This document shows, piece by piece, positions 1,330 through 60,864 of a stretch of 64,000 nt of DNA. Below the pieces are notes generated by a model, which did not search any database, was not told where the DNA came from, and saw nothing but the letters and a program-made list of their open reading frames with translations. The stretch is from Alphaproteobacteria bacterium (lineage in GTDB: Bacteria > Pseudomonadota > Alphaproteobacteria > CAAGCB01 > CAG-977). Both the position numbers and the translations under genes were made by a program. Location: NCBI GenBank assembly GCA_024413465.1, contig JAKSVU010000001.1:159820-223819 (forward strand). The letters run 5' to 3'. Position 1 is the stretch's first letter, and every line of letters starts with the position of its first letter.

Positions 1330-2037
1330 ATGCTTTTATCACAGTTTATTTTAGTTTTTTTAGTTTTTTTTACAATTCCCCTTTTTGCAAGACGTTTTGG
1401 GAAATTTATGCCAGCAGATGCAGGAACTGCCTTATACTACTCATTTCATATCTATCATATTCATAAAAAATCTAAAAAAAGTAGATTAAAAACAAGAAAT
1501 AACTTATTGAAAAGATTATTAATATCTTCTTTATTGTATGCTTTTTTTGGTATTTTTATTGCGTGTTTTATAACAACATACAATCTACCAAATTCATACA
1601 TAATTTTAGTATTTTTATGCTCTTTAATGTCCAATATTGATAATCGTTATTTTATACTACCTGATATTTTGACAATTCCACTACTAATTCTTGGTTTTTT
1701 TTATTCAACCATCAATTATATTGATATTCCGCCTACTGAATCCGCAATTGGAGCAATTTTAGGATATTTACTTCCAACTTTATCATCCTTTTTGATGTTT
1801 ATAATACATCCTTCAAAATTAGGTGGGGGTGATATTAAATTATTATCAGCTATAGGAGCTTGGTTAGGAATTGAAGGATTAATTATAACTATTTGTTTTT
1901 CTTTTATTTTCTTTTCTTTAAAAGTTCTTCTATATAAACAAAAAGAATGTGCCTACGGAAATTCCGCTCTTTTAGGAATTTTAGGTTATTTTGTCCTTAA
2001 ATATATTTTTGAAATAGAGCTGCTATTACTCATCTAA
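1330..2037 (+). CDS. A24-family prepilin peptidase-like membrane protease
   Basis: Polytopic membrane protein carrying the GGGDIKLLSAIGAWLG motif characteristic of type IV prepilin peptidases, with an upstream Asp in NIDNRYFILPD. Confidence 0.55.
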   Translation: MLLSQFILVFLVFFTIPLFARRFGKFMPADAGTALYYSFHIYHIHKKSKKSRLKTRNNLLKRLLISSLLYAFFGIFIACFITTYNLPNSYIILVFLCSLMSNIDNRYFILPDILTIPLLILGFFYSTINYIDIPPTESAIGAILGYLLPTLSSFLMFIIHPSKLGGGDIKLLSAIGAWLGIEGLIITICFSFIFFSLKVLLYKQKECAYGNSALLGILGYFVLKYIFEIELLLLI

Positions 2038-4011
2038 TTCTTCAAAAACAGCAATTCTTTCAAAAGTAAGAGGTTCTTCTTCATTTTTTTCCGCTGATTT
2101 ATCTTCATTGTAATCATTTTGAACAATATCATCTAACCAATTTTTATTTTCCTCGAATTCTTTTTCAGTCCTTTTCAGAATAAACTCAGCTTTTTTTAAG
2201 TTTTTTTGAGCAACTTCAGCCATTTTAGGTTGTCCGAGATTATCATAAACAGCAAGTGCTTCAGAAAAAACATCTACAGCTCTTCTTAAAATTGAAATAT
2301 CATGGTTTTCTTTTTCAAATAATGCAAACAATGCTGAAGCTAAATTGTTTGCTGTCCTAGCCCAAAGAATGGAATTTGCTTCCTTGTTTAAAGCAGATAA
2401 TTCTCGTTCATAAATTTCAATAGATTTCGATAAAAGTGTCGTTTTGGTACTATATGATGAAAATATCTGTAAAGTTTTCGCCAATCCATTCATAGCATCA
2501 GCCCACTTTTCAAGATTTTTTTGAGGAGTAAATGTTCCTAAAGCGTCTTTATATGATTTTATTGCATTTGCAAAATCTTGCCCATTTCCAGATTGAATTG
2601 CAATATTTTGTCGAACATTTCCAACTCTTAAATTCAAATCAGCAAAAACATCTGGTTGCATTTTTCCAGAGATAACAGAAAGAGCCTTTAAAAAAGTATT
2701 TTCTGCATCTTTTAAAGAACTTAAATCTCTATTTTTTTCACCTTCAATTTGCTGTAGCAATCCTACTTGTCTTGTAACAAAAACATATTCGGGAGCGTAT
2801 ATTGGCAATAACTTGATTGCCTCTTTATATATTTCAAATGCTATTGAAGTTTTGCTTTCCATATACCCCGACAAACCAATCAAAGATAATGCATTTGCAA
2901 AACATACCAAGTTAACCCCCTGCTCTTCAGATGACAATCCTATCATTGGCTTTTGTGCATATGGAATTAAAGAATTAAGTAAATTTGGCAAAAACAATCT
3001 TAAAATTTGTTCTTGTTCTAATCGACGTGGTACCATTGTACTCACGCAAAAAGCTTGAAACAGTTTTTGTTGTGTTTCATCCATAGAAATAGGCATAAAA
3101 AAACGCGTTCCTATGTTGTATGTTTGTTTCTGGACACCTGTATTTACAATATGGAATTCTAGGGTCCTTCCTGCGTTATCAGGTTGTGCATATAAACCAA
3201 AATCCGCTTCATATTGATCTATCCAAGAAAGCATCTGTAATCTAGCTCTTTCATAACCAACATCCAAAATAGGTTTGTCAATTAAATGAACTTGCAAATT
3301 TGGAATTGTTTTTAAAATTTCATATAACGATAAAACTATTTTATTATCAGTATCTCCATCAATTTGGGCAAGCAATAAAATTGGACCAAAAGCTACAGGT
3401 ATTTTATTTTGATTTTCTTGAAACCATTGTGTTAAAGACGATTTTTTAGCATCAGCAGATAGTATGATTGGAGAATTTTTTAACGGTTGAACTGTTCTAT
3501 GTAACGGCTCTACCTTTACCAAAGCCTGATTATCGCTATGCTTAACCTGAACTTCATTTTTCGATTCGTTTTTAGATAATTGTTTCCTTTTATTTTTAAC
3601 AGGAGAAACACTTTCCTCCGTAAAATCATTTAAATCAAAATCTCCATCATTTGAATCAAAATTGAGATTAAATTCATCATCAAACGTCGGAGCTAATGCC
3701 CCTTTTTTTTGTTTATTTAAAATAAACTCTTCTCTACTTTGAACCTCAACAATAACATCCGTCAATGCTTTAGCTGTCTTCGAATAAAATCCTTCATTAA
3801 GTAAATCATCTTCTCCCAAAATTTGATTTACAGTTTTCGATCCTATTCTTCTTCCTGTACCAGTTGGAGAATCAAATAAATCAACTTTACCTTCTTCTAT
3901 GGTAAAAATATTCTCACAGGTTTCACCTTTTTTAAAAAGAATCTCACCTTTTGAAAATTTTTTTTCTTTTTTTGACATTTTTTTCCTCAAACGTGGTAAA
4001 AGTAACGACAA
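2026..4011 (-). CDS. Cyclic-nucleotide-binding-domain protein with a long alpha-helical, TPR-like C-terminal region
   Basis: N-terminal GEILFKKGETCENIFTIEEGKVDL resembles the cNMP-binding fold signature (GE.lf.qGd.....y.i..G.v.l). The rest is helical repeat-like sequence with no recognisable catalytic motif. Confidence 0.4.
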   Translation of the reverse strand: MSLLLPRLRKKMSKKEKKFSKGEILFKKGETCENIFTIEEGKVDLFDSPTGTGRRIGSKTVNQILGEDDLLNEGFYSKTAKALTDVIVEVQSREEFILNKQKKGALAPTFDDEFNLNFDSNDGDFDLNDFTEESVSPVKNKRKQLSKNESKNEVQVKHSDNQALVKVEPLHRTVQPLKNSPIILSADAKKSSLTQWFQENQNKIPVAFGPILLLAQIDGDTDNKIVLSLYEILKTIPNLQVHLIDKPILDVGYERARLQMLSWIDQYEADFGLYAQPDNAGRTLEFHIVNTGVQKQTYNIGTRFFMPISMDETQQKLFQAFCVSTMVPRRLEQEQILRLFLPNLLNSLIPYAQKPMIGLSSEEQGVNLVCFANALSLIGLSGYMESKTSIAFEIYKEAIKLLPIYAPEYVFVTRQVGLLQQIEGEKNRDLSSLKDAENTFLKALSVISGKMQPDVFADLNLRVGNVRQNIAIQSGNGQDFANAIKSYKDALGTFTPQKNLEKWADAMNGLAKTLQIFSSYSTKTTLLSKSIEIYERELSALNKEANSILWARTANNLASALFALFEKENHDISILRRAVDVFSEALAVYDNLGQPKMAEVAQKNLKKAEFILKRTEKEFEENKNWLDDIVQNDYNEDKSAEKNEEEPLTFERIAVFEELDE

Positions 4012-11267: not shown

Positions 11268-14012
11268 TTATACTGAAAAAAAATCTCTAACTTTTTCTAT
11301 TGTTTCCTTAAAACTAATTTTTTCGACATTTACATCAGATGGAAATGCTGTTAACACTTCAGAAGGTACAGCTCTATCTAAAATTACAAAAATACCTCTA
11401 TCTGTAGCTTTTCTAATTAATCTTCCATATGCTTGACTCAACTTCATTCTAATGGAAATGTAGTCATATGTATTTCCATAAAGTTCTTTTCTAGCCTTAT
11501 TTAAAATATTACTTCTGTTCCATGGTACTTTATCAAAGACTATCATTTTTAATGATTCTCCAGGTACATCAATACCATCTCTAACAGCATCCGTACCTAA
11601 CAAACATGATTTTTTATCAGCTTTAAAAATATCTATTAACGTTTGAATATTTATCCTATCAATATGTTGAGAAAATAAAGATATATCATTGTCCCCCAAT
11701 GGAGATTTTATTCTTTTATAAATTTCTTTTAACCTACTAATAGCTGTAAAAATACCTAATCCACCACCTTGTGATGCTAAGAAAAGTTCTCTGTATGCAG
11801 CTGATACTTGTACTATATCATTTTTATCTATATCATTCACAATAAATACTCGACTATTCGTTTTATAGTCAAATGGAGACTTATAATCTACAGTTAATAA
11901 GTTTTGCGGTTTTTCTGTATCACAATAATGAATTATTCCGGTTCTTTTTAATGCAAAATCCCAATTTAAATTATCATCTTTTGTTTTATCTTTTAATGTT
12001 GCAGAGGTTATCAATACACCATGAGCCACTTGACTTAATAATGATGAAAATGGAATTGTTGGATCCACATAATGTCTATGATAACCGACATCAACTTCAA
12101 AACCTTCACTTCTTGTAATTTCGAACCAATCTACAAAATCCTTTGGAGTTTCTGTTTCTAATTGTCCTAACATTATTCTCCAATTTCCAAGAACATTTAA
12201 AACATTTTGTTTTATCGACTTTGAAACAGAAATATACCTCTGTTTATCTTTAGAATCGAGTTCTGCAAAGTGATCATCAACAAATTTTTCTATCAGCTTT
12301 AGAAGATAATCCACTTTTTTTTCAAGTTCTACAATCTCATAATACAATATCTGCCCTTTTTCATGAACTTTTTCATCCAAAGGTCGAGGGAAACATTCCA
12401 AAGAATAGTACATATCATTGCTTTCTGATCTTGCCAAAACTTGCCTGTATATTTCTGTCAAAAAATCCTCAAATGCCCCAGATGGTGTTCTATTTTTTAT
12501 TCTTTTTAAAGCATTAACTTGTGGTAAAAAGGAAGATTTTTCATATATGTTAAATATAACTTCAGATATTTTTTCATTTACTAAAATTAAATCTTCAAAA
12601 CGTTTTTTTAAACCTTTCATCCTCGAAATTTTTGCATCTTCTGAGCCTAATAATATTCTTCTTACCTCAAAACCTTGTAGAGTAGATAATTCAATAGAAA
12701 ATACATCATCTGCAGCTTCAAATATTTGATGTCCTTCATCAAATATATATCTTGTTGGTAATGGAACATCTTCTTTTGCATCTGCAAATTGATGCATAAT
12801 CAAAGCATGATTTTCAATAATTATTTTTGCTAATTTTGACTTTTGTAAAACTTTTTCTATAAAACATTTTTTAAAATGTGGACATTGAGAGTATAAACAT
12901 TCACCTCTTTTGTAAAATAAATTTTCTATTTTACCATTTTCAATTAAATCGACTAACCATCCTGGAAAATCTCCTCCATTCATATCTCCAGTTTTTGTTT
13001 TAGAAAGCCATCTTGCTATTAACCCTAAAAAAACAGCATCTCCTTTTGAATTTGAAATCTTACCAACAGCTTCAGCATAATTAAGCAAACAAATATAATT
13101 TTCTCGACCTTTTCTTACGACTACATTTCTTTGTTTTACTTGTGGATTATCATATACTTTGTTTAACTCTTCATCTAATTGCTTTTGCAAATTTTTTGTA
13201 TATGTACTTATAAAAATACTACCAGAATTAATATTTCCCCAAACATTAACTGGCGACAAATACCCTAATGTCTTTCCAATTCCAGTTCCTGCTTGAGCTA
13301 ACACTGTATTTGGAAAACCTTTTTCTTCTCTTGGATTAAAAATTTTAGAAACAGATTTTGCATATTCTATTTGTTCTGTTCTATTTTCTGCATTTTTTGT
13401 TTTTGATATAAATTCTTTTAAACTTTCAAGAACATCATTTTCATCTATTTGTTGAGTTCCGGAAATAGATGTGGGGACTGTTTCTTCCCACTCTGGTAAT
13501 CTTTCCCAAACAGCATATCCCTTTGGAGCAACTAATCCAATCTTATTTATATCTACACCTAATCTTTGAAGAATATCTATTCCCCACTCCCATCTAGAAT
13601 TCCTAACCATTGTTATTAACAAAGAAATAACATGATAACGTTCTGTTCCTGAAATAGTGGAAATATCATCTAATAGTTTTTTAATAACATTATAATATGT
13701 CTTTACTTCTTCCGTGATATTATTTTCGAAATCACATGATAGATTGAGAAATTCTGCAATGTGCTGGATAGCCGGAATTATAGGTTCTGCTGGTTTTACA
13801 AAGGCAAACAACTCTAAAATATCAAATACTTTATAGAATCTATAACCATCTAATTTATCCAAGATAAAAACTTTGTTACAAACAACAATAGGAACATCTT
13901 TCACATAAGAATAAACTTCTTTTGCAGATTTAAAGGAATGAAACTCACCAGATTGATCACCAATAATAAAATTATTTGATTTAAACAACAAAATAAGTGG
14001 ATATTTATTCAA
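11268..14012 (-). CDS. dinG: DinG/Rad3(XPD)-family Fe-S ATP-dependent DNA helicase, long form
   Basis: Walker A AQAGTGIGKTLGYL, DEGH box (IFDEGHQIF), and a Cys cluster CLYSQCPHFKKC typical of the Fe-S domain in this family. 914 aa with a ~220-aa N-terminal extension. Confidence 0.65.
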   Translation of the reverse strand: MNKYPLILLFKSNNFIIGDQSGEFHSFKSAKEVYSYVKDVPIVVCNKVFILDKLDGYRFYKVFDILELFAFVKPAEPIIPAIQHIAEFLNLSCDFENNITEEVKTYYNVIKKLLDDISTISGTERYHVISLLITMVRNSRWEWGIDILQRLGVDINKIGLVAPKGYAVWERLPEWEETVPTSISGTQQIDENDVLESLKEFISKTKNAENRTEQIEYAKSVSKIFNPREEKGFPNTVLAQAGTGIGKTLGYLSPVNVWGNINSGSIFISTYTKNLQKQLDEELNKVYDNPQVKQRNVVVRKGRENYICLLNYAEAVGKISNSKGDAVFLGLIARWLSKTKTGDMNGGDFPGWLVDLIENGKIENLFYKRGECLYSQCPHFKKCFIEKVLQKSKLAKIIIENHALIMHQFADAKEDVPLPTRYIFDEGHQIFEAADDVFSIELSTLQGFEVRRILLGSEDAKISRMKGLKKRFEDLILVNEKISEVIFNIYEKSSFLPQVNALKRIKNRTPSGAFEDFLTEIYRQVLARSESNDMYYSLECFPRPLDEKVHEKGQILYYEIVELEKKVDYLLKLIEKFVDDHFAELDSKDKQRYISVSKSIKQNVLNVLGNWRIMLGQLETETPKDFVDWFEITRSEGFEVDVGYHRHYVDPTIPFSSLLSQVAHGVLITSATLKDKTKDDNLNWDFALKRTGIIHYCDTEKPQNLLTVDYKSPFDYKTNSRVFIVNDIDKNDIVQVSAAYRELFLASQGGGLGIFTAISRLKEIYKRIKSPLGDNDISLFSQHIDRINIQTLIDIFKADKKSCLLGTDAVRDGIDVPGESLKMIVFDKVPWNRSNILNKARKELYGNTYDYISIRMKLSQAYGRLIRKATDRGIFVILDRAVPSEVLTAFPSDVNVEKISFKETIEKVRDFFSV

Positions 14013-14473
14013 AATCCTTCACCTTTTACATATCGAAGTCTATTTGGAAAATAACTTACTATATTTTATTTTTTTTTCAAAATTATTATCGAAACTTTAT
14101 AAAAAATTTCATCATAATTTTAACACGTTTTTTCTTCTTGCTACCTTATTAACCCTGTTTGTGATATTATTATGAAAAAAATTATATAGCCATCTTAATT
14201 TTAACAAAATTAATTCTAGATAAAAAAATCTACGATTCAGATTACCCCTCAAAAACTTTTTAATGAAATTTTTAATTATCTAAAAACTCAGTAAATTTGC
14301 AATTACTTGGTAATTTCATAGTATAAAAATGATCAAATTGATTAAATTACTTTCAATTCATGACGATATCTCTTTATTATACTGTTAATATAACAAACAT
14401 ATCATCAAAAATAGTCGTGTTTTATTTGGTTACAATTTTTACATAGTCACCTATGAAACTTGTAAATTTCCTA

Positions 14474-14508
14474 ATAAAAAAACACCCTAAATAAAGGGTG
14501 TTTTTTTC
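14474..14508. terminator. Bidirectional rho-independent terminator
   Basis: aaaaaa-acaccct-aaataa-agggtgt-ttttttt, immediately downstream of the minus-strand GGGtGRT gene. Confidence 0.55.
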
Positions 14509-14530
14509 ATGTATTGTAATTATATAAGGT

Positions 14531-15526
14531 TTACATTGCTTGAGAAACAGCAACTGCTACTGCAACACTAGCTCCAACCATTGGGTTATTACCCATACCG
14601 ATCAAGCCCATCATTTCGACGTGTGCTGGAACGGAAGAAGAACCCGCAAATTGAGCATCACCATGCATACGCCCCATTGTATCGGTCATACCATAAGAAG
14701 CAGGACCTGCTGCTACGTTATCTGGGTGCAATGTACGACCTGTACCACCACCACTAGCAACTGAGAAGTACTTCTTACCATGTTCTATAGCCCATTTCTT
14801 GTATGTACCTGCAACTGGATGTTGAAAACGTGTTGGGTTGGTTGAGTTACCTGTAATAGAAACATCAACACCTTCTTTAATCATAATAGCCACACCTTCA
14901 GAAACATCGTCTGCACCGTAGCAACGAACTTTTGCACGATCACCTTTAGAAAAAGCTTTTTCAGAAACAATTTTCAAACTACCTGTTTTATAATCATATT
15001 CTGTTTCGACAGATGTAAATCCGTTAATACGAGAAATGATATAAGCAGCATCTTTTCCCAAACCGTTTAAAATAACCTGTAAGGGTTGTTTACGTACTTT
15101 ATTAGCTGTTAAAGCAATACCAATAGCACCTTCGGCAGCAGCAAAAGATTCATGACCTGCTAAGAAGCAGAAACATTTTGTTTCTTCGCTCAACAACATA
15201 GCTGCCAAGTTTCCATGACCTAAACCAACAGCACGTTGATCAGCAACAGATCCTGGAATGCAGAATGCCTGTAAACCAACACCAATCTTTTCAGCAGCTT
15301 CAGCAGCTGATTTTACGTTTGATTTAATCGCAACTGCAGCACCTAAAGTATATGCCCAGCAAGCATTTTCAAAGCAAATCGGCTGAATATCTTTTACAAT
15401 TTTAGCAACATCAATACCTTTATCTTTACAGATTTTATCTGCTTCTTCGATATTCTTAATACCATATTTTTTGCAGCATTCATCAATCTGCGCAATACGA
15501 CGTTCATAACTTTCAAAAAGACTCAT
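14531..15526 (-). CDS. GGGtGRT-family protein (conserved protein family of unknown function)
   Basis: Contains the family-defining SGGGTGRTLHPDNV motif. Gly/Ala-rich, 331 aa. Visibly more GC-rich than its neighbours. Confidence 0.7.
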   Translation of the reverse strand: MSLFESYERRIAQIDECCKKYGIKNIEEADKICKDKGIDVAKIVKDIQPICFENACWAYTLGAAVAIKSNVKSAAEAAEKIGVGLQAFCIPGSVADQRAVGLGHGNLAAMLLSEETKCFCFLAGHESFAAAEGAIGIALTANKVRKQPLQVILNGLGKDAAYIISRINGFTSVETEYDYKTGSLKIVSEKAFSKGDRAKVRCYGADDVSEGVAIMIKEGVDVSITGNSTNPTRFQHPVAGTYKKWAIEHGKKYFSVASGGGTGRTLHPDNVAAGPASYGMTDTMGRMHGDAQFAGSSSVPAHVEMMGLIGMGNNPMVGASVAVAVAVSQAM

Positions 15527-15537
15527 TTTTGTTCTCC

Positions 15538-16242
15538 TTATTCTTTGCGCGGATCAATTACTTTTACAGCATCAGCAAAACGACCTTTTGTAGCAACGTT
15601 CTTTTCGAATGCTTCTTTAGGATCAACACCTTTTTTTATAGCTTCCATCATCTTGCCCAAGTTTACTGTCTTATAACCAATAACTTCGTTATTTTCATCT
15701 AAACCTTCAGCCAATACGTAACCTTCAGCCATTTCCAAATAACGGACGCCCTTTGGTTCTGTAGAATACATTGTACCTACTTGAGAACGTAAACCTTTAC
15801 CTAAATCTTCTAAGCCAGCACCTACTGGTAAACCATCATCAGAAAATGCTGATTGTGTTCTACCATAAACGATTTGTAAGAACAATTCACGCATAGCAAC
15901 GTTAATTGCATCACAAACTAAATCTGTATTTAAGGCTTCTAAAATCGTTTTACCTGGTAATACTTCTGCAGCCATAGCAGCTGAGTGTGTCATACCTGAG
16001 CAACCAATTGTTTCAACTAAAGCTTCACGAATTATACCTTTTTTAACATTTAATGTTAATTTGCACGTACCTTGTTGTGGTGCACAAGCGCCAACACCGT
16101 GAGTTAACCCTGAAATATCCGTTACTTCTTTTGATTTTACCCATTTACCTTCTTCAGGAATTGGGGCTGGTTCATGACGTGCACCTTTAGCAACTGTGCA
16201 CATTTCTTGAACTTCTTTTGAACATTGATAAGAACAAGTCAT
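15538..16242 (-). CDS. IscU/NifU-like Fe-S cluster scaffold-domain protein
   Basis: ETIGCSGMTHSAAMAAEVLPGKTI resembles the IscU C-terminal Cys block (GCGSAIASSS...GKTL). Adjacent to, and on the same strand as, the GGGtGRT gene (11-nt gap). Confidence 0.55.
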   Translation of the reverse strand: MTCSYQCSKEVQEMCTVAKGARHEPAPIPEEGKWVKSKEVTDISGLTHGVGACAPQQGTCKLTLNVKKGIIREALVETIGCSGMTHSAAMAAEVLPGKTILEALNTDLVCDAINVAMRELFLQIVYGRTQSAFSDDGLPVGAGLEDLGKGLRSQVGTMYSTEPKGVRYLEMAEGYVLAEGLDENNEVIGYKTVNLGKMMEAIKKGVDPKEAFEKNVATKGRFADAVKVIDPRKE

Positions 16243-16341
16243 TTAATGCTTACTCCATAAAAATTAAAAACAATTTACTTATAAACGTTTTTTTTTATTT
16301 TTACACATTTTTTTTATTTTTTTGATAAAATATTTAGAATA

Positions 16342-17097: not shown

Positions 17098-17128
17098 AAA
17101 AAGGCGGTTTAAAACCGCCTTTTTTTTA
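17097..17128. terminator. Bidirectional terminator between the thioesterase gene and hppA
   Basis: aaaaaa-ggcggttt-aaaaccgcc-tttttttt. Confidence 0.55.
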
Positions 17129-19597
17129 TTTATCTTCTTTTAAAACAGGAATTCTCATTCCATAGAAAGATTTTACAATAAAATACAATCCTATTAAGAA
17201 GAATACTCCACCAATCCACAATGCTGTATGTTCTGCTTCAACAGCAATTTCTACTGCTAACAAACCAAACAATGTTGTGAATTTGATAATTGGATTCAAT
17301 GCAACGGATGATGTATCTTTAAACGGATCACCAACTGTATCACCAACAACTGTTGCTGCATGCAAGTCTGTTCCCTTTTCATGCATATCTACTTCAACTA
17401 ATTTTTTAGCATTATCCCAAGCACCACCAGCATTAGCCATGAAGATTGCTTGATATAAGCCAAAAATAGCAATTGAAATCAAATAACTTGCAAAAAAAGT
17501 TGGATCAAAACAAGCGTAGGCTAATGTAAAACAGAACAATGCACCAAAAATATTCATCATACCGTTTTGAGCATATGTTGTACAAATACGAACAACTGCT
17601 GTAGAATCCTCAACAGAAGCTTTTTCTGCTGTAGAATCTAACTTAATGTTGTCCTTGATAAACATAACTGCTCTATAAGCCCCTGTAGTAACAGCTTGAA
17701 TACTTGCACCACAGAACCAATAAATAATTGCACCACCAGCCATAAAACCAATTAAAACTCGCGGATCTAGCAAACTCAACTGTAATTTTAACAATAATAT
17801 AATTGAAAAAATCATTGTTGTTGCTCCCATGACAGCTGTACCTATTAAAACTGGTTTAGCTGTAGCTTTAAACGTATTTCCAGCAGAATCATTTTCTTCT
17901 AAATAGTACTTACCTTTTTCAAAATCAGGTTCGAAACCGAAATCTCTTTTTATTTCTTCTTTAATATTTGGAAGAGTCTCTATCTGTGATAATTCAAAAA
18001 CAGATTGAGCATTATCTGTCACTGGACCATAACTATCAACAGCTATCGTTACTGGCCCCATACTTAGCATACCAAAAGCAACCAATCCAAATGCAAAAAC
18101 CGTTGGATAAATCATGATTTGGTTCAATCCATTTGCAGATGCAAAGTATGCAACAAGCATCAATAATGTCAATGTCATGCCTTTCCAAAAAGCACTAAAA
18201 TTACCAGCTACAATACCTGATAAAATTGATAATGATGCTCCACCTTCACGTCCAGCATTAACAACTTCACGAACGTGCTTTGAAGAAGATGATGTAAATG
18301 CCTTTGTTAACTCTGGAATTAATGCTGCAGAAAGCGTTCCACAACTAATAATTGTTGCTAACCTAAACCAAATGCAACCAAAATCCTTCAACAAAGTATA
18401 ACTTACAGCATATGTCACACAAATCGCTAAGGATGAACTCAACCAAACTAAAGTTGTTAAAGGAAGTTCAAAATTAAATTTCTTTCCCATAAAAAACTTA
18501 TATGTTTTACCGTTTATTGCATATGCTAAAACAGATGTCATGATCATTAAGATACGCATTACAAAAATCCAAACAATCAATTTTGCCTGAATTTCTTGGC
18601 CATTTGATGATAACGCTATACTTCCATCAGGACGAACAATCATTCCTACAGCCAAAATAATAAATGTAATTAATGCTACGCCTGTAACCCCATACGTTTC
18701 AAAACCATCCGCTGTTGGTCCCACAGAATCCCCTGCATTATCTCCAGTGCAATCTGCAGTAACACCTGGATTTCTTGCATCATCTTCTTTAATGTTAAAG
18801 AAAATTTTCATTAAATCAGCACCAATATCTGCGATTTTAGTAAAAATACCACCACAAATACGTAAAACAGAAGCCCCTAAAGATTCTCCAATTGCAAATC
18901 CAATAAAACAAGAACCAGCATCTTCAGCAGGAACAAACAACAAAATACTTAACATCATTACTAATTCGACACATATTAGTAATACGCCTATAGACATTCC
19001 TGACCTTAATGGAATTCTTAAAACAGGTTCTGGATTTCCTTTTAATGCTTCAAAAGCAGTTCTACAATTTGCCCAGTTATTAATTGCAATGCCAAACCAA
19101 GCAACACCGACAGATCCCATAATTCCAAGTATAGACCATAAGAATATAATCATTACTCTTGATAAATTAAAATCACGCAAGAAGTAGAAATAGTAGAATA
19201 AACAAATACCAATCAAAACTTCAAGTTTCATCAAAAGTTTTATTTGCTGAATCAAGTATGTATTACATGTTTTGTGAATAAGTATTGATGTATTTTCCAT
19301 TGAGGAATGTAATTTCATTTTTCTAATTCTATGAAATTCCCACAATCCAAAAATCATACCTAAAACACAAATAACAAGACCTATAGCTAACAAACAATTT
19401 CCAGAACATGCCATTCCAAAAACATTAAAAGACTGATTTAAATTAGGTAAAATTAAATCAGCTTCACTTGCAAACAAAGGCTTTGTAAAAAATGAAATAA
19501 TCAAAAAAAACAAAGCGTATAAACGCATATTAAAACCTCTTAAATAATATGTATACAAAACATATTCTGCTTTTTTGCAGAACATATTGTCCCGCAT
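17126..19597 (-). CDS. hppA: Membrane-bound H+-translocating pyrophosphatase
   Basis: GGIFTKIADIGADLMKI, DNAGDSVGP and DTVGDPFKDTSS are H+-PPase signatures. The ORF has ~23 extra N-terminal codons. Met24 (MRLYALFFL..., ATG near 19528) is the more likely start. Confidence 0.9.
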   Translation of the reverse strand: MRDNMFCKKAEYVLYTYYLRGFNMRLYALFFLIISFFTKPLFASEADLILPNLNQSFNVFGMACSGNCLLAIGLVICVLGMIFGLWEFHRIRKMKLHSSMENTSILIHKTCNTYLIQQIKLLMKLEVLIGICLFYYFYFLRDFNLSRVMIIFLWSILGIMGSVGVAWFGIAINNWANCRTAFEALKGNPEPVLRIPLRSGMSIGVLLICVELVMMLSILLFVPAEDAGSCFIGFAIGESLGASVLRICGGIFTKIADIGADLMKIFFNIKEDDARNPGVTADCTGDNAGDSVGPTADGFETYGVTGVALITFIILAVGMIVRPDGSIALSSNGQEIQAKLIVWIFVMRILMIMTSVLAYAINGKTYKFFMGKKFNFELPLTTLVWLSSSLAICVTYAVSYTLLKDFGCIWFRLATIISCGTLSAALIPELTKAFTSSSSKHVREVVNAGREGGASLSILSGIVAGNFSAFWKGMTLTLLMLVAYFASANGLNQIMIYPTVFAFGLVAFGMLSMGPVTIAVDSYGPVTDNAQSVFELSQIETLPNIKEEIKRDFGFEPDFEKGKYYLEENDSAGNTFKATAKPVLIGTAVMGATTMIFSIILLLKLQLSLLDPRVLIGFMAGGAIIYWFCGASIQAVTTGAYRAVMFIKDNIKLDSTAEKASVEDSTAVVRICTTYAQNGMMNIFGALFCFTLAYACFDPTFFASYLISIAIFGLYQAIFMANAGGAWDNAKKLVEVDMHEKGTDLHAATVVGDTVGDPFKDTSSVALNPIIKFTTLFGLLAVEIAVEAEHTALWIGGVFFLIGLYFIVKSFYGMRIPVLKEDK

Positions 19598-19715: not shown

Positions 19716-20111
19716 ATGACCTTTGAAGAACTTTATGAAAATTTTTCTTTTTTAGATGATTGGGAATCAAAATATAGTTATTTGATTGATTTAGGAAATA
19801 ATTTGCCCTCTTTTGCTGAAATTGATAAAAATGATGAAAATAAAATCGATGGTTGCATGAGTCAAGTTTGGTTAAAAATGGAAATCATTGATGACATCAT
19901 CAATTTTCACGGAGAAAGTGATGCTCATATTGTTCGAGGATTAATTGCCGTTTTACAGATAATGCTTTCAGGAAAAACAAAGAAAGAAATACTTGAAGCA
20001 GATATTCCTGACCTTTTTAAAAAATTAGGATTAGATGCTCATCTTAGTCCTTCAAGAAGAAATGGTTTTTTTTCTATGGTAGAACGTATAAAAAAAGAAG
20101 CTAAAAAATGA
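19716..20111 (+). CDS. sufE: Cysteine desulfuration (sulfur acceptor) protein SufE-like
   Basis: Conserved Cys context DGCMSQVWL. 131 aa. Confidence 0.7.
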   Translation: MTFEELYENFSFLDDWESKYSYLIDLGNNLPSFAEIDKNDENKIDGCMSQVWLKMEIIDDIINFHGESDAHIVRGLIAVLQIMLSGKTKKEILEADIPDLFKKLGLDAHLSPSRRNGFFSMVERIKKEAKK

Positions 20112-21937
20112 TTCAAAAAAAATACTTTGTATTATTACTCTTTTTTACCTTACTTTTAAATTCAATTGAAACTTTTTCCACTGAAATGGATGAAGAAGGA
20201 CTTGAGTGTAAAAGCAACGCTTCTTGTGAGATAGGGTGGCAATGTCGTCAGGTAAATCTTGATCAATGGAAATGTGTAAAATTATGTCAAAAACCAGAAG
20301 ATTCTGACGGGAATTTGTGCGATAAAATCCATCCGGAATGTTTTATTTCAGATGAAGGACATTCTTCCTATTGCGGATGTATTGAAGGTAGTTGTAACAC
20401 TGGTAGTATTTGCGTGGGGACAAAATGTATCCCCTGTCCAAAGGGACACACTCATGTAGATGGACAAAGTTGTAATTGTCCTCCTGGTACAGCATCTAAT
20501 GGTAAAGAAGGTTGTTTAGCATGCCAAAAAGGACAAAATTGTTCCTGTAAAAATAATTTTATCTCTAATGGTCAAGGTGATTGTGTCGAATGTAACACTG
20601 TCGAAGATTGTGGTGATTTTGGAAAAAAGTGTTTATTTCCAGGCCAATTGAATTCTCAATGTATTGATTTGGAATGTGAAAAAGGAGAATACATCGTTGG
20701 CAACCATTGTGAAAAGTGTCCTGATGGTTGTGAAACTTGCCAAGGAATCAATTTATGTAAATCATGTGCAGCCGGACATTATCTTGCTGGAGGGAAATGT
20801 ATCTCCTGTGCTAAAAAATTTGGTATAGGTTGTGGAAAATGTTCAATACAAAGTTCAAAATGTGAAGTATGTAAACTCGGATACATAAAAAATAAAAAGG
20901 ATTTTTGCGTACCAATAACATGTTTAAATGATGAATTTTTGAGTGGAGATATTTGCACAAAGTGTTCTAGATCTTTGAAAAACTGTTTATCTTGTTCAAA
21001 TGAAGAAGAATGTACAAAATGTACTTCTCCAAGAATGGTATTAAATTCAAATAAGAAATGTATTTGCCCTTTAGGTTGGAAATTTACAAAAAACAAGAAT
21101 GATTGCGAAAAAATTCCGTGTAAAAAAGGAGAATTTCACACCGGATCAGGATGTGCTCCATGTCCAGAGGAATGTACAGATTGTTCCTCAACAGAATTAT
21201 GTTATGCGTGTAATAACGAGAACGGTTTTATTCTTTCAGAAAATAAATGTACAAAAATTCAATGTAATTTCGGAGAATATCGCAATAAAATATCTTGTTT
21301 AAAATGTTCTGACAAAATAAATGATTGTATTTCTTGTTCAGAAGATGGAAATAAATGTTTAGAATGTAAAACTGGATTTCGTATAGAAAATGGAAAATGT
21401 CTTCCTATAATTTGTGAAAAAGATGAATTTCTTAAGGGAAATTCCTGCTTAAAATGTGCACAAAAATTTGAACATTGTGCTTCCTGCAATGAAGGGATGT
21501 GCTTGACTTGTGAAAAACTTCATGAATTAAAAAATGGAACATGTCAATACAAAAAATGTACCGGAAATACGTTTTTAAATAAAATTTCTGATTCTTGTGA
21601 AGAATGTCCTATCGGAACAAAATCAAATGGGAGTGATTGTGAAAAAATTATATGCCCACAAGGACAATACCTAGATGGAAATGATTGTAAAAAGTGTAAT
21701 GAATCCTGTTTAACTTGTTCAAATAAATCTTTTTGTGATACATGTCCCGAAGGGAAAGGTATCTATGATAAAGGTTTTTGCTCTAACAGGGAAATAGGAT
21801 ATTTTTATAAACAACACCATTATATTCCTTGCAATCAAAAAATCCCAGGATGCACAGAATGTACAAATGATGGATCTATTTGTTTGGATTGTGGAAGATA
21901 TAAAATGGATATTTTACAAAAATGCATTGTAAAATAA
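20108..21937 (+). CDS. Secreted cysteine-rich repeat protein (furin-like/EGF-like CxxC repeats, eukaryotic surface-antigen-like)
   Basis: Signal peptide MIQKKYFVLLLFFTLLLNSIETFS. More than 90 Cys arranged as reiterated C-x2-C-x(5-12)-C-x2-C units with a ~35-40-aa period. The ATG overlaps the sufE stop (ATGA). Confidence 0.6.
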   Translation: MIQKKYFVLLLFFTLLLNSIETFSTEMDEEGLECKSNASCEIGWQCRQVNLDQWKCVKLCQKPEDSDGNLCDKIHPECFISDEGHSSYCGCIEGSCNTGSICVGTKCIPCPKGHTHVDGQSCNCPPGTASNGKEGCLACQKGQNCSCKNNFISNGQGDCVECNTVEDCGDFGKKCLFPGQLNSQCIDLECEKGEYIVGNHCEKCPDGCETCQGINLCKSCAAGHYLAGGKCISCAKKFGIGCGKCSIQSSKCEVCKLGYIKNKKDFCVPITCLNDEFLSGDICTKCSRSLKNCLSCSNEEECTKCTSPRMVLNSNKKCICPLGWKFTKNKNDCEKIPCKKGEFHTGSGCAPCPEECTDCSSTELCYACNNENGFILSENKCTKIQCNFGEYRNKISCLKCSDKINDCISCSEDGNKCLECKTGFRIENGKCLPIICEKDEFLKGNSCLKCAQKFEHCASCNEGMCLTCEKLHELKNGTCQYKKCTGNTFLNKISDSCEECPIGTKSNGSDCEKIICPQGQYLDGNDCKKCNESCLTCSNKSFCDTCPEGKGIYDKGFCSNREIGYFYKQHHYIPCNQKIPGCTECTNDGSICLDCGRYKMDILQKCIVK

Positions 21938-39588: not shown

Positions 39589-41541
39589 TTGTCAGAAATT
39601 GTTACTTATGAAGTATACATCTATGAGACGACATCTTGGGAACTTGTCGCAAGGTATCCTGTTGAAAAAAAATCAGCTGCAATGGAACATGCAAGATCTC
39701 TTGAATACTCACAGCAGAGACCTACAAAAGTTGTAAAAGAAATATATACACCTGAAGATCAAACTTTTAATGAAAAAATGGTTTATTTGAGTGATATACC
39801 GAAGCCTGTTCCACAAAAAAGAACTCGTACAAAGTCTGATGGATTTAGCCTTCCGACGAAGAATGAAAAAAAGAAGAAAAAACAATCTTTTGCCGAAGCA
39901 ATGATGCTACTTGGGGCAACTTTAGTTTTTTCAATATTAATTTCTAGTGCTCTAACTTATGGAATCATGAGAGCCTTGATTGTTGGAGAATTAATTTCTG
40001 AAGAAGTGGCATCAAAATTTTCTTTATCAATATTTATTTTAACATTCCTTTGTATCTCTATTCCATTATCAGTCAATTGGGTGGATTGGAGCGTTTTATT
40101 TGATGATGAAGATAAAAATGAAAATAAAATAAAAAAAGTATTAGCTGAACAAGATGCTACTAAGAAAAAAGAAAATTTAATTAGTTCTTATAGAAATGAT
40201 CAAGCATCTTGGCTCACAAAAGCCTTTATAAATTTCTTTGCAAAAATACATAATGAAAAAACACTTGAAGAGTTAATTGAAGAAGAAAATAACAGAAAAA
40301 AAAGCTTACAAACAACTGCTCAAAAAGAAGATTTTGAAAAGGCAATTGTTGGTGAAAATACTGATGAAGATTCTCTTAATGAAACTACAGATAATGACGA
40401 AGTTTTTACAGATGAGAATGATGCTTTTGAACAAGATAATTTAGAAGAAAATCCAAAAGAAGATAATTCCCAAAATCAGCAAAAAAATGAAGTGAAACAA
40501 GAAGAAAACACTTTACCTTCAGAATTAGAACAAGAATTTTTAAAATTAACCACTTTTCTATCCTTAATTTTAAAAATTCTTCAAAAACAGAATATTCTTC
40601 TAAATTCATTTGCTAGATTTGGTATTGAATTATTTTTAGCAGGCTCTTGTGAAACTTTATGTAAAAGGCATCACTTAAGTAAGCAGAATAATAAGCAGCT
40701 TGTCATTTCCTTATTAGAACTTTTAGGAAGAACTAAAAATCTTGCTGAAATCTTCTATAACAGATTAGAGGAATACGTACTAGATAAACAATACCTAAAC
40801 ATGATACAGAGTGGCTCACAAGCACTTAGTTTTTATTTAGATAATCCAACATCTCCTGAAGTATTGACGCTTATTCAAAATGCAATGCAAAACTGGACTA
40901 ACCCTGAGGAGAAAGATGGGGACTCTGACAAACAACAATCAAGAGATTCTGGTATTGTTACTGTAATGTTTACAGATATGGTCGGTTCAACCCACATGAC
41001 ACAAAAATATGGTGATGTAGCTGCGCAACAAATTGTTAGGGCTCATAATTCAATTGTTAGACAAGCTTTAAATGCTTGTAGTGGAAAAGAAATCAAACAA
41101 ACTGGAGATGGGATAATGGCATCTTTTGCGTGGGCTTCAAATGCAATTGATGCTGCAATTTCAATTCAAAAGGCAACTACAGCTTACAATAATAAAAATC
41201 CAACAATTCCATTAAAGATTAGAATTGGATTAAACGCTGGTGAACCGATACTTGAAGACAATGATTTATTTGGATTAACGGTTCAATTAGCAGCTAGAAC
41301 TTGTGCTCAAGCTGAAGCTGGACAGATTTTTATTTCTAACGTTGTTCGAGAACTTGCTTCTGGTAAAAATTATCAAATTGAAAATAAAGGTTTTTTCAGC
41401 TTAAAGGGTATAGAAGCTGAGCAAAATTTACATGAAGTTATTTGGCAGAGTAAAAATCTTGATAATACAAAAAGAGATAACCTTGAAAGTCCAACAGAAG
41501 AAAGCAAGCAAAAATTATCACAGGTTTTACCTGAATTATAA
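39589..41541 (+). CDS. Membrane-anchored class III adenylate/guanylate cyclase
   Basis: TTG start with a taagga SD. Two TM helices, an acidic low-complexity linker, then a C-terminal CHD catalytic domain (VMFTDMVGSTHM, GDGIMASF, IGLNAGEP, TVQLAART). Confidence 0.75.
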   Translation: MSEIVTYEVYIYETTSWELVARYPVEKKSAAMEHARSLEYSQQRPTKVVKEIYTPEDQTFNEKMVYLSDIPKPVPQKRTRTKSDGFSLPTKNEKKKKKQSFAEAMMLLGATLVFSILISSALTYGIMRALIVGELISEEVASKFSLSIFILTFLCISIPLSVNWVDWSVLFDDEDKNENKIKKVLAEQDATKKKENLISSYRNDQASWLTKAFINFFAKIHNEKTLEELIEEENNRKKSLQTTAQKEDFEKAIVGENTDEDSLNETTDNDEVFTDENDAFEQDNLEENPKEDNSQNQQKNEVKQEENTLPSELEQEFLKLTTFLSLILKILQKQNILLNSFARFGIELFLAGSCETLCKRHHLSKQNNKQLVISLLELLGRTKNLAEIFYNRLEEYVLDKQYLNMIQSGSQALSFYLDNPTSPEVLTLIQNAMQNWTNPEEKDGDSDKQQSRDSGIVTVMFTDMVGSTHMTQKYGDVAAQQIVRAHNSIVRQALNACSGKEIKQTGDGIMASFAWASNAIDAAISIQKATTAYNNKNPTIPLKIRIGLNAGEPILEDNDLFGLTVQLAARTCAQAEAGQIFISNVVRELASGKNYQIENKGFFSLKGIEAEQNLHEVIWQSKNLDNTKRDNLESPTEESKQKLSQVLPEL

Positions 41542-60779: not shown

Positions 60780-60864
<85 letters not shown>

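What the first reader, a model, noticed from the sequence alone, without database searches (positions are those of the whole stretch)
14531..16242. GGGtGRT protein plus IscU/NifU-like scaffold gene pair in a proteobacterial core-gene neighbourhood
The GGGtGRT family (named for its invariant motif, present here as SGGGTGRTLHP) is an uncharacterised family mostly seen in anaerobic Firmicutes, Bacteroidetes and archaea. It is characteristically adjacent to an IscU/NifU-like gene, exactly as here (11-nt spacing, same strand). Finding the pair in an AT-rich gammaproteobacterial-type genome, next to a Firmicute/plant-type acyl-ACP thioesterase and the H+-PPase gene, suggests lateral acquisition of a small metabolic module. 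The two genes are visibly GC-richer than flanking DNA and are bounded by a 518-bp AT-rich spacer on one side and a divergent promoter region on the other. The conserved pairing implies an Fe-S-dependent function for the GGGtGRT protein that remains undescribed.
Basis: partly seen in the sequence, partly recalled or inferred. Interest (0 to 1): 0.6.

Follow-up and report, generated by a model that had tools for sequence, protein, structure and literature searches.

The report
Resident GGGtGRT / IscU-like gene pair
This is an ordinary, long-resident copy of a two-gene operon found in anaerobic bacteria of many phyla (a "GGGtGRT" protein plus an IscU-shaped iron-sulfur partner). It was not recently imported into this gut alphaproteobacterium, and what the pair does is still unknown.

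Summary
On the minus strand, a 234-aa IscU-like gene (16242..15538) is followed after 11 nt by a 331-aa GGGtGRT gene (15526..14531). The GGGtGRT gene matches Pfam PF14057 over its full length (645 bits). Each gene has a GGAG ribosome-binding site, and a hairpin terminator follows the second.

- **Host:** the window comes from a MAG labelled Alphaproteobacteria (GCA_024500545.1), not a gammaproteobacterium.
- **GC excess:** it sits in codon positions 1 and 2 (24% and 20% Gly+Ala). GC3 (0.22 and 0.19) matches the host. The pair is GC-richer than its flanks in 98% and 92% of 142 loci.
- **Descent:** both genes fall in a 100%-bootstrap clade with other gut alphaproteobacterial MAGs whose synonymous sites are saturated. 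This indicates long vertical residence.
- **Module:** the acyl-ACP thioesterase, PPase and SufE are next to the pair only in this window.

The pairing is universal: 156 of 156 testable loci. Both proteins are 67-94% identical across at least ten phyla. The partner fails the IscU model cut-offs. It keeps three invariant Cys and a fourth in 81 of 82 genomes, lacks the labile Asp, and carries an extra C-terminal domain.

My best reading is a stable two-subunit Fe-S protein, probably an enzyme. There is a weak link to glycolysis. The function remains undescribed.

The parts
16243..16341 (.). 99-bp, very AT-rich (GC 0.13) intergenic region between the pair and the divergently oriented acyl-ACP thioesterase ORF. 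It presumably holds the operon's promoter. A GGAG Shine-Dalgarno sequence lies at 16256..16253, 10 nt before the ATG.
   Evidence: Sequence read. Length and GC. The last ~50 nt before the ATG, including TGGAGTAAGCATTAA, are conserved in the congeneric MAG locus L088 although the upstream gene there is different. The promoter-pattern scan gave only weak matches, so no promoter is assigned.
15538..16242 (-). First gene of the operon: a 234-aa IscU-fold protein. GenBank calls it a 'hypothetical protein'; other genomes label its homologues NifU or 'Fe-S cluster assembly scaffold'. Residues ~45-125 form the IscU-like core. Residues ~126-234 are a conserved extra domain. The N-terminal Cys3/Cys7/Cys15 extension is lineage-specific.
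   Evidence: Across 82 genomes, C53, C81, C110 and H48 are invariant, and C60 and H86 are present in 81 of 82.
15913..16086 (-). Segment encoding the four conserved Cys of the partner: C53 (16086..16084), C60 (16065..16063), C81 (16002..16000) and C110 (15915..15913). This is the putative all-Cys cluster site at the position of the IscU cluster site.
   Evidence: Codons read; conservation. HMMER aligns C81 with the IscU 'GCG' Cys. It places Gln57 where the first IscU Cys lies and a gap where the IscU Asp lies. The equivalence of C110 to the third IscU Cys is my inference from the predicted secondary structure.
15527..15537 (-). 11-nt intercistronic spacer GGAGAACAAAA. The Shine-Dalgarno sequence of the second gene starts directly after the stop codon of the first, which suggests tight co-translation.
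   Evidence: The median gap in other loci is about 19 nt, with a range of -9 to 190.
14531..15526 (-). Second gene: the 331-aa GGGtGRT protein (PF14057). The model shows an N-terminal helical domain (~1-112), a Rossmann-like alpha/beta core (~118-257), a near-invariant Gly/His-rich segment (258-312) and a C-terminal Ala/Val-rich helix.
   Evidence: 136 of 331 residues are invariant in 82 genomes of at least ten phyla. Only C118 is invariant among the Cys. H104, H125, H236, H267, H288 and H302 are invariant.
14723..14755 (-). Codons for the name-giving motif S258-GGGTGRT-LHP268, which directly follows predicted strand 252-257.
   Evidence: All motif residues are invariant in 82 genomes. The model confidence here is very low (pLDDT 25-46).
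14476..14507 (-). Intrinsic-terminator-like hairpin 24 nt after the stop codon. It has a 13-bp stem that includes CACCC/GGGUG, flanked by an A-run and a U-run, so it could act in both directions.
   Evidence: pattern scan. (fold -17.2 kcal/mol, z = -3.4, 0 of 200 shuffles as stable).
14013..14530 (.). 518-bp AT-rich spacer (GC 0.218) between the operon and the next gene, a DinG/YoaA-like helicase. It holds the terminator and presumably the helicase promoter. No convincing ORF or RNA family lies within it.
   Evidence: The length depends on the helicase really starting at the TTG at 14012.

Best explanation
**What is shown**
- The locus is a self-contained two-gene operon with its own upstream region, two GGAG ribosome-binding sites, an 11-nt gap and a terminator.
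- It is a resident gene pair of a low-GC gut-type alphaproteobacterial MAG. It was inherited vertically within a clade of such MAGs, not recently acquired.
- It belongs to a pair of protein families that always occur together and are among the most conserved proteins of anaerobic bacteria.

**What is inferred**
- The two products form a stable heteromeric Fe-S protein.
- The small subunit has the IscU fold but is no longer a transient scaffold. The first IscU Cys and the labilising Asp are gone. Two new Cys (C53, C60) flank that loop and, with C81 and C110, give an all-Cys site. A conserved ~110-residue domain has been added. I therefore expect it to hold a permanent cluster, for electron transfer or catalysis.
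- The GGGtGRT subunit supplies the substrate site. It has a Rossmann-like core followed by the invariant Gly/His/Asp-rich segment, with a strand-then-GGGTGRT loop that looks like a phosphate-binding loop. It has only one invariant Cys, so it probably carries no cluster of its own.
- The complex is most likely a highly expressed, iron-dependent enzyme of fermentative core metabolism. It may act on phosphorylated glycolytic intermediates. That last step is only a lead.

**Rough probabilities**

| Claim | Probability |
|---|---|
| Identity of the genes and operon | >0.95 |
| Not a recent transfer | ~0.85 |
| Stable Fe-S heteromer, enzyme-like | ~0.5 |
| Link to glycolysis | ~0.25 |
For: **Identity and anatomy:**

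**Resident status**
- GC3 lies within the host range.
- GC3 tracks host GC across 142 loci, and the pair is GC-richer than its flanks almost everywhere.
- The alphaproteobacterial clade has 100/100 bootstrap support. Its sister group includes a sixth alphaproteobacterial MAG in 69% of replicates.
- Third codon positions are saturated against the GC 0.44-0.52 relatives. Against a congener with GC 0.31 they are 77-81% identical.
- The window holds no mobility genes.
- The only plasmid hits are large, non-mobilizable replicons.

**Obligate partnership**
- 156 of 156 testable loci are paired.
- The pairing also holds in a divergent subfamily only ~53% identical to this GGGtGRT.
- The two gene trees share their main groupings, and pairwise distances correlate (r = 0.58).

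**Extreme constraint:** in the same loci, GGGtGRT is 76-87% and the partner 67-87% identical to Clostridia and others, while GltX is 51-52% and RuvB 58%. At 50% clustering the family collapses into very few full-length clusters.

**Cluster site:** conservation of C53, C60, C81, C110 and H48, the IscU alignment and the IscU fold match. The divergent subfamily keeps all four partner Cys but none of the GGGtGRT Cys.

**Iron dependence and abundance (literature)**
- B. thetaiotaomicron BT0173-74 falls 11- to 12.8-fold in low iron (PMC10434189).
- The C. pasteurianum protein responds to iron supply (PMC5395762).

**Glycolysis lead**
- Transposon insertions in BT0173-4 were recovered in the same screen as pfkA insertions, with a 2-fold effect (bioRxiv 10.64898/2026.04.10.717545).
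- Phosphofructokinase is adjacent in 6 of 167 loci (5 independent lineages) and pyruvate kinase in 4.
- The divergent subfamily lies between an ApgM-type phosphoglycerate mutase (517 bits against a cut-off of 489) and a His_Phos_1 gene.
Against: - No experiment and no solved structure exists for either family.
- The models rest on a shallow alignment (Neff 1.2). GGGtGRT has pLDDT 71, dropping to 25-46 across the motif. The partner has pLDDT 59. The domain descriptions are therefore provisional.
- The fold search of PDB found nothing significant for GGGtGRT. The best E-value was 0.016, with TM <= 0.26 and only generic Rossmann cores.
- No natural fusion of the two proteins was found, so physical interaction is inferred only from the operon structure.
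- No third gene recurs in more than 3% of loci. The glycolysis adjacency is rare and could reflect a general clustering of highly expressed genes.
- The ApgM/His_Phos context rests on two fairly closely related genomes (ApgM 84% identical).
- B. thetaiotaomicron mutants grew normally in vitro, so the pair is not an essential step there.
- The trees are neighbour-joining only. Deep branches are unresolved, so where the pair came from before the alphaproteobacterial clade is unknown.
Confidence: 0.6

Rival explanations
1. One reading: the pair, perhaps with the acyl-ACP thioesterase and the PPase, is a recently acquired foreign metabolic module in a proteobacterial core-gene neighbourhood, revealed by its higher GC.
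For: - The pair's GC is 0.40 and 0.38, against 0.21-0.32 in the flanks.
- The flanking genes differ in every related locus. This includes the congeneric MAG L088, which has 99% amino-acid identity but a different upstream gene.
- Across phyla, the family tree does not follow the species tree.
Against: - GC3 equals the host's.
- The same GC excess appears in 98% and 92% of 142 loci and comes from Gly/Ala-rich composition.
- The alphaproteobacterial clade has 100/100 support with saturated synonymous sites.
- No thioesterase, PPase or SufE is linked to the pair elsewhere.
- No integrase, transposase or bordering tRNA is present. The only tRNA in the window is at 60780.
- No mobilizable plasmid carries the gene.
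Confidence: 0.06
2. Ancient transfer followed by vertical descent: an ancestor of the anaerobic gut alphaproteobacteria took the operon from another gut anaerobe (for example the Elusimicrobia or Melainabacteria lineages) and it has been inherited since. This is compatible with the best explanation for the present locus. It differs only on ultimate origin.
For: - The alphaproteobacterial clade lies next to Elusimicrobia, Melainabacteria and unclassified gut MAGs in both gene trees. Elusimicrobial proteins are 87-88% identical.
- The N-terminal Cys-rich extension of the partner is shared by this group and absent from most Firmicutes.
- From my own knowledge, not tested here: the aerobic alphaproteobacteria I know of lack the family.
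Against: - Support for the wider group is low (21/100).
- At >75% identity everywhere, the family carries little deep phylogenetic signal.
- The distribution within Alphaproteobacteria was not surveyed.
Confidence: 0.4
3. Dedicated Fe-S biogenesis: the partner is a working scaffold or carrier, as its annotation says. GGGtGRT is then either its helper (a donor of sulfur or iron, or a nucleotide-driven release factor) or its client.
For: - The partner has an IscU-type fold and weak IscU/NifU sequence similarity.
- Expression depends on iron.
- The GGGTGRT loop resembles a nucleotide- or phosphate-binding loop (direct reading of the sequence).
Against: - The partner fails all IscU/NifU curated cut-offs.
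- The first scaffold Cys and the labilising Asp are not conserved, and an all-Cys site is present instead. For IscU itself, replacing that Asp stabilises the cluster (established knowledge of D39A variants).
- No cysteine desulfurase recurs beside the pair in 167 loci.
- GGGtGRT has only one invariant Cys, and the divergent subfamily has none. It is therefore a poor cluster client and a poor persulfide donor.
- SufE is adjacent only in this window.
Confidence: 0.2
4. A non-enzymatic abundant protein: the complex stores or buffers iron or Fe-S clusters, or protects against oxygen or nitrosative stress, rather than catalysing a metabolic step.
For: - It is very abundant in vivo and is listed next to rubrerythrins.
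- It is strongly repressed in low iron.
- It is dispensable in vitro.
- It has no fixed metabolic gene neighbourhood.
Against: - 41% of GGGtGRT residues are invariant across phyla. These include six His and many Gly, Asp, Asn, Thr and Arg in loop motifs. That pattern is typical of an active site, not a storage shell.
- There is no ferritin-, Dps- or rubrerythrin-like sequence or fold signal.
Confidence: 0.12

Closest known systems
GGGtGRT protein family (Pfam PF14057), e.g. Bacteroides thetaiotaomicron BT0173 with its 'NifU' neighbour BT0174
   Same: It gives a full-length match at 645 bits, has the same length class and the same motif, and has the same upstream partner gene. GenBank already names this very protein 'GGGtGRT protein'.
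   Different: Nothing essential differs. The host lineage is a low-GC alphaproteobacterial MAG. The partner here carries an N-terminal Cys3/Cys7/Cys15 extension that most Firmicutes versions lack. The family itself has no known function.
IscU / NifU N-terminal domain Fe-S scaffold (PF01592, TIGR01999; e.g. E. coli IscU, human ISCU)
   Same: The three-stranded sheet plus helices of the IscU fold are predicted for residues ~45-125 and match solved IscU/ISCU structures. The central 'GC(G/S)' Cys is conserved as C81. A Cys at the start of the last core helix (C110) probably corresponds to the third scaffold Cys (my inference).
   Different: - Scores fall below all curated cut-offs.
- The first scaffold Cys is replaced by Gln, and the Asp has no counterpart.
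- There are two extra conserved Cys, C53 and C60.
- About 12 residues before the last Cys are missing.
- A conserved ~110-residue C-terminal domain is added.
- It is never next to a cysteine desulfurase and always next to GGGtGRT.
Two-subunit Fe-S enzymes of anaerobes, such as the alpha/beta L-serine dehydratases (analogy only)
   Same: It is a small (~25 kDa) plus larger (~35 kDa) subunit pair encoded by adjacent, tightly spaced genes. It is iron-dependent and typical of fermentative anaerobes. This comparison comes from my own knowledge.
   Different: No sequence or fold similarity was detected. It is an analogy of architecture, not a family assignment.

Membership tests
GGGtGRT (Pfam PF14057) | Full-length match to the family HMM above the gathering score | tested here: met
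   645.3 bits against a cut-off of 27. Residues 4-330 cover profile positions 1-327 of 327.
GGGtGRT (Pfam PF14057) | Invariant GGGTGRT motif and a length of about 330 aa | tested here: met
   SGGGTGRTLHP at residues 258-268. The protein is 331 aa. The motif is invariant in 82 genomes.
GGGtGRT (Pfam PF14057) | An IscU-like partner gene directly upstream on the same strand. This is an empirical hallmark, not part of the Pfam definition. | tested here: met
   The gap here is 11 nt. The partner is present in 156 of 156 testable loci.
IscU / NifU_N scaffold (PF01592, TIGR01999, TIGR03419) | Score at or above the curated cut-off of the family models | tested here: not met
   19.9 against 22 (Pfam). 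21.2 against 192.4 and 24.7 against 187.9 (NCBIfam)..
IscU / NifU_N scaffold (PF01592, TIGR01999, TIGR03419) | The three scaffold Cys, plus the Asp two residues after the first Cys | tested here: not met
   In the HMMER alignment, the first Cys aligns with Gln57 and the Asp with a gap. The second Cys is C81. The third was not aligned; C110 is a candidate by inference. C53 and C60 are new conserved Cys.
IscU / NifU_N scaffold (PF01592, TIGR01999, TIGR03419) | IscU fold | tested here: inconclusive
   Foldseek finds ISCU/IscU chains (E 9e-5, probability 1.0, TM about 0.5 on the target). The model has a mean pLDDT of only 59.
IscU / NifU_N scaffold (PF01592, TIGR01999, TIGR03419) | Genomic and functional association with a cysteine desulfurase (IscS, NifS or SufS) | tested here: not met
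   No recurrent desulfurase appears within 3 kb in 167 loci, and none is in the window. Only SufE lies 3.5 kb away, and that adjacency is not seen elsewhere.
Recently acquired genomic island | Synonymous-site composition foreign to the host | tested here: not met
   GC3 is 0.221 and 0.188, against a host value of 0.184 +/- 0.027. The cross-locus regression predicts 0.232 and 0.239 for a resident gene.
Recently acquired genomic island | Mobility genes, a tRNA or repeats at the borders | tested here: not met
   The Pfam survey of the window's ORFs found no integrase or transposase. The only tRNA is at 60780. Border repeats were not searched.
Recently acquired genomic island | Nearest relatives in a different lineage from the host | tested here: not met
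   The nearest relatives are other alphaproteobacterial MAGs, in a clade with 100/100 support. Deeper origin is inconclusive.
Tubulin/FtsZ GTPases (signature GGGTG[ST]G) | Homology of the nucleotide-binding domain | tested here: not met
   hhalign of the family profile against E. coli FtsZ gave probability 0.2%. No FtsZ or tubulin appears among the 50 best PDB fold matches listed.
P-loop NTPases (Walker A [AG]xxxxGK[ST]) | Canonical Walker A motif | tested here: not met
   SGGGTGRT has Ser in the first position and Arg in place of Lys (direct reading). No P-loop family was hit even at E <= 10.

The most novel reading that the evidence does not exclude
The GGGtGRT/IscU-like pair is an undiscovered two-subunit Fe-S enzyme that is nearly universal among anaerobes. 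It uses a scaffold fold turned into a permanent cluster subunit. It works in or next to lower or upper glycolysis on a phosphorylated intermediate, which would explain four things: its abundance; its iron control; its recovery alongside pfkA in a Bacteroides sugar-sensing screen; and its occasional adjacency to PFK, pyruvate kinase and phosphoglycerate-mutase genes.
Probability: 0.25. Interest if true: 0.8.

Novelty: new member of a known kind. Interest (0 to 1): 0.38.

Why it matters
For this window the result is a correction. The pair is a normal resident operon, and its higher GC is a trap: it reflects amino-acid composition, not foreign origin.

The families themselves deserve attention. 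The two always-paired proteins are 67-94% identical across at least ten phyla. That is more conserved than GltX or RuvB in the same genomes. They are highly expressed in gut and rumen communities and are iron-regulated, yet they have no assigned function.

The comparative results give concrete targets for experiments:
- Four conserved Cys sit in the IscU-fold subunit, and only one invariant Cys sits in GGGtGRT.
- The scaffold Asp has been lost.
- The pairing is universal.
- A divergent subfamily lies beside phosphoglycerate-mutase-like genes.
- PFK and pyruvate kinase are weakly enriched as neighbours.

Tried and rejected
2. **Sequence and profile searches of PDB** found no relative of GGGtGRT. 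Pfam at E <= 10 gave no second family.
3. **FtsZ/tubulin idea** (GGGTGRT against GGGTG[ST]G, and VGLGHGN against GGGGGN): hhalign probability 0.2%. Rejected.
4. **PFK-family idea** (TMGRMHGD against VMGRYCGD, plus weak Foldseek hits to trypanosome PFK): hhalign probability 0.7%. Rejected as homology.
5. **Natural partner-GGGtGRT fusions.** The long proteins in the hit lists are internal duplications or frameshift chimeras, not fusions.
6. **Wider synteny with the window.** None was found in 94 loci. The only trace is a 38-41% identical DinG-like gene about 9 kb away in one MAG lineage.
7. **Linked Fe-S theme with sufE.** No locus other than the window has SufE nearby. The window holds no SufS or SufBCD.
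8. **RNA elements.** There is no Rfam match at gathering score, and only two chance-level hits over the terminator.
9. **Mobile carriers.** The ten plasmid hits are all large, non-mobilizable replicons. The six 'Bacteriophage sp.' faecal contigs carry no annotation and may well be bacterial DNA.
10. **Metagenome scan for the divergent subfamily.** The ApgM/His_Phos context therefore rests on the lineages represented by L095 and L098.
11. **Promoter scan.** It gave only weak consensus matches, no more convincing than in shuffled sequence.
Full report
**1. What is there**

ORF listing shows two adjacent minus-strand genes. A 234-aa ORF at 16242..15538 comes first. After 11 nt (GGAGAACAAAA) comes a 331-aa ORF at 15526..14531.
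- The second ORF matches Pfam PF14057 (GGGtGRT) end to end at 645 bits, against a cut-off of 27. It carries SGGGTGRTLHP at residues 258-268.
- The first ORF matches IscU/NifU only weakly, in the stretch of residues 48-108. It scores 19.9 against 22 for NifU_N, 24.7 against 187.9 for TIGR03419 and 21.2 against 192.4 for TIGR01999. E-values against solved ISCU chains are about 0.003.
- Both genes have a GGAG ribosome-binding site.
- A 13-bp hairpin with a U-run lies 24 nt after the second stop codon (14476-14507). It folds at -17.2 kcal/mol, z = -3.4.
- The 518-bp spacer has GC 0.218 and the 99-bp divergent intergenic region has GC 0.131, as described.

The unit is a compact bicistronic operon.

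**2. Whose genome**

Exact look-up places the window's proteins in a MAG labelled 'Alphaproteobacteria bacterium'. The assembly is GCA_024500545.1, on a 331.8-kb contig. GGGtGRT is MCQ2965261.1, and the partner is MCQ2965262.1, annotated 'hypothetical protein'.

The rest of the window is housekeeping. It includes prephenate dehydrogenase, TldD, GltX, a DinG/YoaA-like helicase, RNase H, BamB, Der, RuvABC, YebC, EF-P with EpmA, a CysK-like enzyme, a PiT transporter, HtpG and FolKP. There is no integrase, no transposase and no SufS or SufBCD. The 'gammaproteobacterial' label is not supported.

**3. Is the pair foreign?**

*Composition.* The pair is GC-richer than the window average (0.398 and 0.376, against a mean of 0.317). 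The excess lies in codon positions 1 and 2.
- GC3 is 0.221 and 0.188, against 0.184 +/- 0.027 for the window (z = 1.4 and 0.2).
- Gly+Ala is 24% and 20%, against 12%.
- Across 142 loci with flank GC from 0.25 to 0.64, the pair's GC3 follows flank GC (r = 0.94 and 0.93).
- The pair is GC-richer than its flanks in 98% and 92% of loci. The mean excess is +5.7 and +5.0 points, rising to +7.7 and +7.1 in hosts below 36% GC.
- The regression predicts GC3 of 0.232 and 0.239 for a resident gene in this genome.

The visible GC step is therefore a property of the gene family, not a sign of transfer.

*Phylogeny.* In neighbour-joining trees of each protein, and of both concatenated, the window groups with four other alphaproteobacterial MAG lineages at 100/100 bootstrap. 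A sixth alphaproteobacterial MAG is in the sister group in 69% of replicates. Elusimicrobia are there in about 35%.

*Divergence within the clade.* Amino-acid identity is 91-94%, but third codon positions are only 36-48% identical, and host GC ranges from 0.31 to 0.52. That indicates old divergence with full amelioration in each host. A congeneric MAG (L088, GC 0.309) shows 99% amino-acid and 92-93% nucleotide identity.

*Flanks.* The flanking genes are not conserved, even in L088. The neighbourhood is rearranged, but the two genes always travel together. The thioesterase, PPase and SufE never accompany the pair elsewhere.

*Mobile carriers.* Plasmid hits are limited to ten large, non-mobilizable replicons.

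*Conclusion.* Recent lateral acquisition of a 'module' is not supported. An ancient transfer into the ancestor of these gut alphaproteobacteria stays possible but cannot be resolved, because the family is too conserved to carry deep signal.

**4. The families**

- GGGtGRT homologues are 76-94% identical to the window protein in alphaproteobacterial MAGs, Elusimicrobia, Clostridia, Bacilli, Melainabacteria, Planctomycetes, Lentisphaerae, Desulfobacterota, Spirochaetes, Bacteroidetes, Polyangiaceae and Photobacterium. Vibrio homologues are about 71% identical.
- At 50% clustering, the family collapses into a handful of full-length clusters plus fragments.
- The partner is 67-87% identical over residues 8-234 in the same genomes.
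- In the same loci, GltX is 51-52% and RuvB 58% identical to the window's. Both proteins are therefore under exceptional constraint.
- The partner lies directly upstream on the same strand in 78 of 80 genome loci and 78 of 80 metagenome loci. The four exceptions are cut by contig ends.

**5. Residues and folds**

*Partner.* Over 82 genomes, C53, C81, C110 and H48 are invariant, and C60 and H86 are present in 81 of 82. The N-terminal C3 and C7 occur in only 12 of 82, and C15 in 59 of 82.
- HMMER aligns C81 with the IscU 'GCG' Cys. It puts Gln57 at the first scaffold Cys and a gap at the Asp that follows it.
- The model has pLDDT 59 and is provisional. It gives three strands and helices that Foldseek matches to IscU/ISCU (E 9e-5, probability 1.0). 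A further ~110 residues follow.
- C53 and C60 flank the hairpin that carries the first Cys and the Asp in IscU. C110 sits at the start of the last core helix, where IscU has its third Cys. That last mapping is my inference.
- For IscU, removing the Asp stabilises the cluster (established knowledge of the D39A variants). An all-Cys site without that Asp therefore points to a permanently bound cluster.

*GGGtGRT.* 136 of 331 residues are invariant, but only one Cys (C118). Six His are invariant, and residues 220-320 are 95-100% conserved.
- The model has pLDDT 71 and pTM 0.79 from a shallow alignment. It shows a helical N-domain and a Rossmann-like core. Confidence is very low (25-46) across the motif segment.
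- No PDB structure matches significantly.

*Ideas tested and rejected.* Kinship with FtsZ/tubulin or with PFK found no support. No natural fusions exist among the long hits.

**6. Functional leads**

*Literature.*
- The B. thetaiotaomicron pair BT0173-74 falls 11- to 12.8-fold in low iron (PMC10434189).
- The C. pasteurianum protein changes with iron supply (PMC5395762).
- Transposon insertions in BT0173-4 were recovered with pfkA in a screen for loss of glucose-dependent silencing. The effect was 2-fold and growth in vitro was normal (bioRxiv 10.64898/2026.04.10.717545).

*Gene neighbourhood.* In 167 loci, no neighbour recurs in more than 5. Among the few that do recur are:

| Neighbour | Loci | Note |
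|---|---|---|
| Phosphofructokinase | 6 | 5 independent lineages, mostly divergent, 188-368 nt upstream |
| Pyruvate kinase | 4 | |
| PduL | 4 | |
| GltX | 5 | |
| DXS | 4 | |

My rough expectation for PFK or pyruvate kinase by chance is below one locus each. That estimate is not a formal test.

*Divergent subfamily.* One GGGtGRT subfamily is ~53% identical to the window protein and lacks all of the main family's conserved Cys. It still has the partner, which is 50% identical and keeps all four Cys. This pair sits between an ApgM-type phosphoglycerate mutase (NF003104, 517 bits against 489) and a His_Phos_1 gene. The evidence comes from only two fairly related lineages.

Together these results point, weakly, towards chemistry on phosphorylated glycolytic intermediates.

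**7. Verdict**

The finding is a correct identification of a known but uncharacterised gene pair, with a wrong evolutionary reading. The locus itself is ordinary.

The best mechanistic reading is a stable two-subunit Fe-S protein. An IscU-fold subunit has become a permanent cluster holder, and the GGGtGRT subunit provides the substrate site. The rivals, in order of weight, are a dedicated Fe-S biogenesis role, a storage or stress-protection role, and recent horizontal transfer.

Interest in this window is modest. The family as a whole remains a worthwhile target.

Noticed in passing
window 20108-21937 (+): A 609-aa ORF with an N-terminal signal-like segment. It has 90 Cys (14.8%), including 27 CxxC spacings, and no Pfam match. 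Its ATG overlaps the sufE stop codon (ATGA). Close copies occur only in a few short-read assemblies. It resembles eukaryote-style Cys-rich repeat surface proteins.
   Followed up: partly
L095 5997-10606 and L098 2572-8580: A divergent GGGtGRT subfamily (~53% identical, none of the main family's conserved Cys) still has the IscU-like partner. It lies in the order ApgM-type phosphoglycerate mutase, partner, GGGtGRT, an unknown 317-326-aa protein with a hydrophobic N-terminus, and His_Phos_1.
   Followed up: partly
window 17126-19597 (-): The membrane pyrophosphatase scores 1259 bits (cut-off 826) on NCBIfam NF001950, 'sodium-translocating pyrophosphatase'.
   Followed up: no
L088 9350-9868; L081 8520-9095: In related alphaproteobacterial MAGs the gene next to the pair is an FMN_red/flavodoxin-like protein with a CxxCxxC motif (iron-sulfur flavoprotein type). 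Such a neighbour occurs in 5 of the first 85 loci. The congener L088 has 99% identical proteins but a different upstream gene, so the flank was rearranged recently.
   Followed up: partly
window 16198-16236 (-), partner residues 3-15: The N-terminal Cys3/Cys7/Cys15 extension of the partner (MTCSYQCSKEVQEMC) occurs in the alphaproteobacterial, elusimicrobial and a few other lineages. Most Firmicutes versions lack it. It could be an extra metal site.
   Followed up: partly
window 14531-15526 (-), residues 258-303: The most conserved part of GGGtGRT, which is invariant in 82 genomes, is the part the structure model is least sure of (pLDDT 25-46). This may come from the shallow alignment. It may also mean the segment folds only against a cofactor or the partner.
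   Followed up: no
window 11268-14012 (-): The DinG/YoaA-like helicase ORF starts at a TTG and has about 190 N-terminal residues outside any Pfam match. Its true start, and hence the length of the 518-bp spacer, is uncertain.
   Followed up: no
GenBank MT835590.1, MT837192.1 and four more (hits H11-H16): Six unannotated 'Bacteriophage sp.' contigs from human faecal samples encode GGGtGRT at 73-95% identity. They are probably bacterial DNA in a virome data set rather than phage genes.
   Followed up: no
window 2026-4011 (-) and 39589-41541 (+): A 661-aa protein with a cyclic-nucleotide-binding domain and a 650-aa protein with an adenylate/guanylate cyclase domain both lie in this small, low-GC genome segment. 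This hints at cyclic-nucleotide signalling.
   Followed up: no
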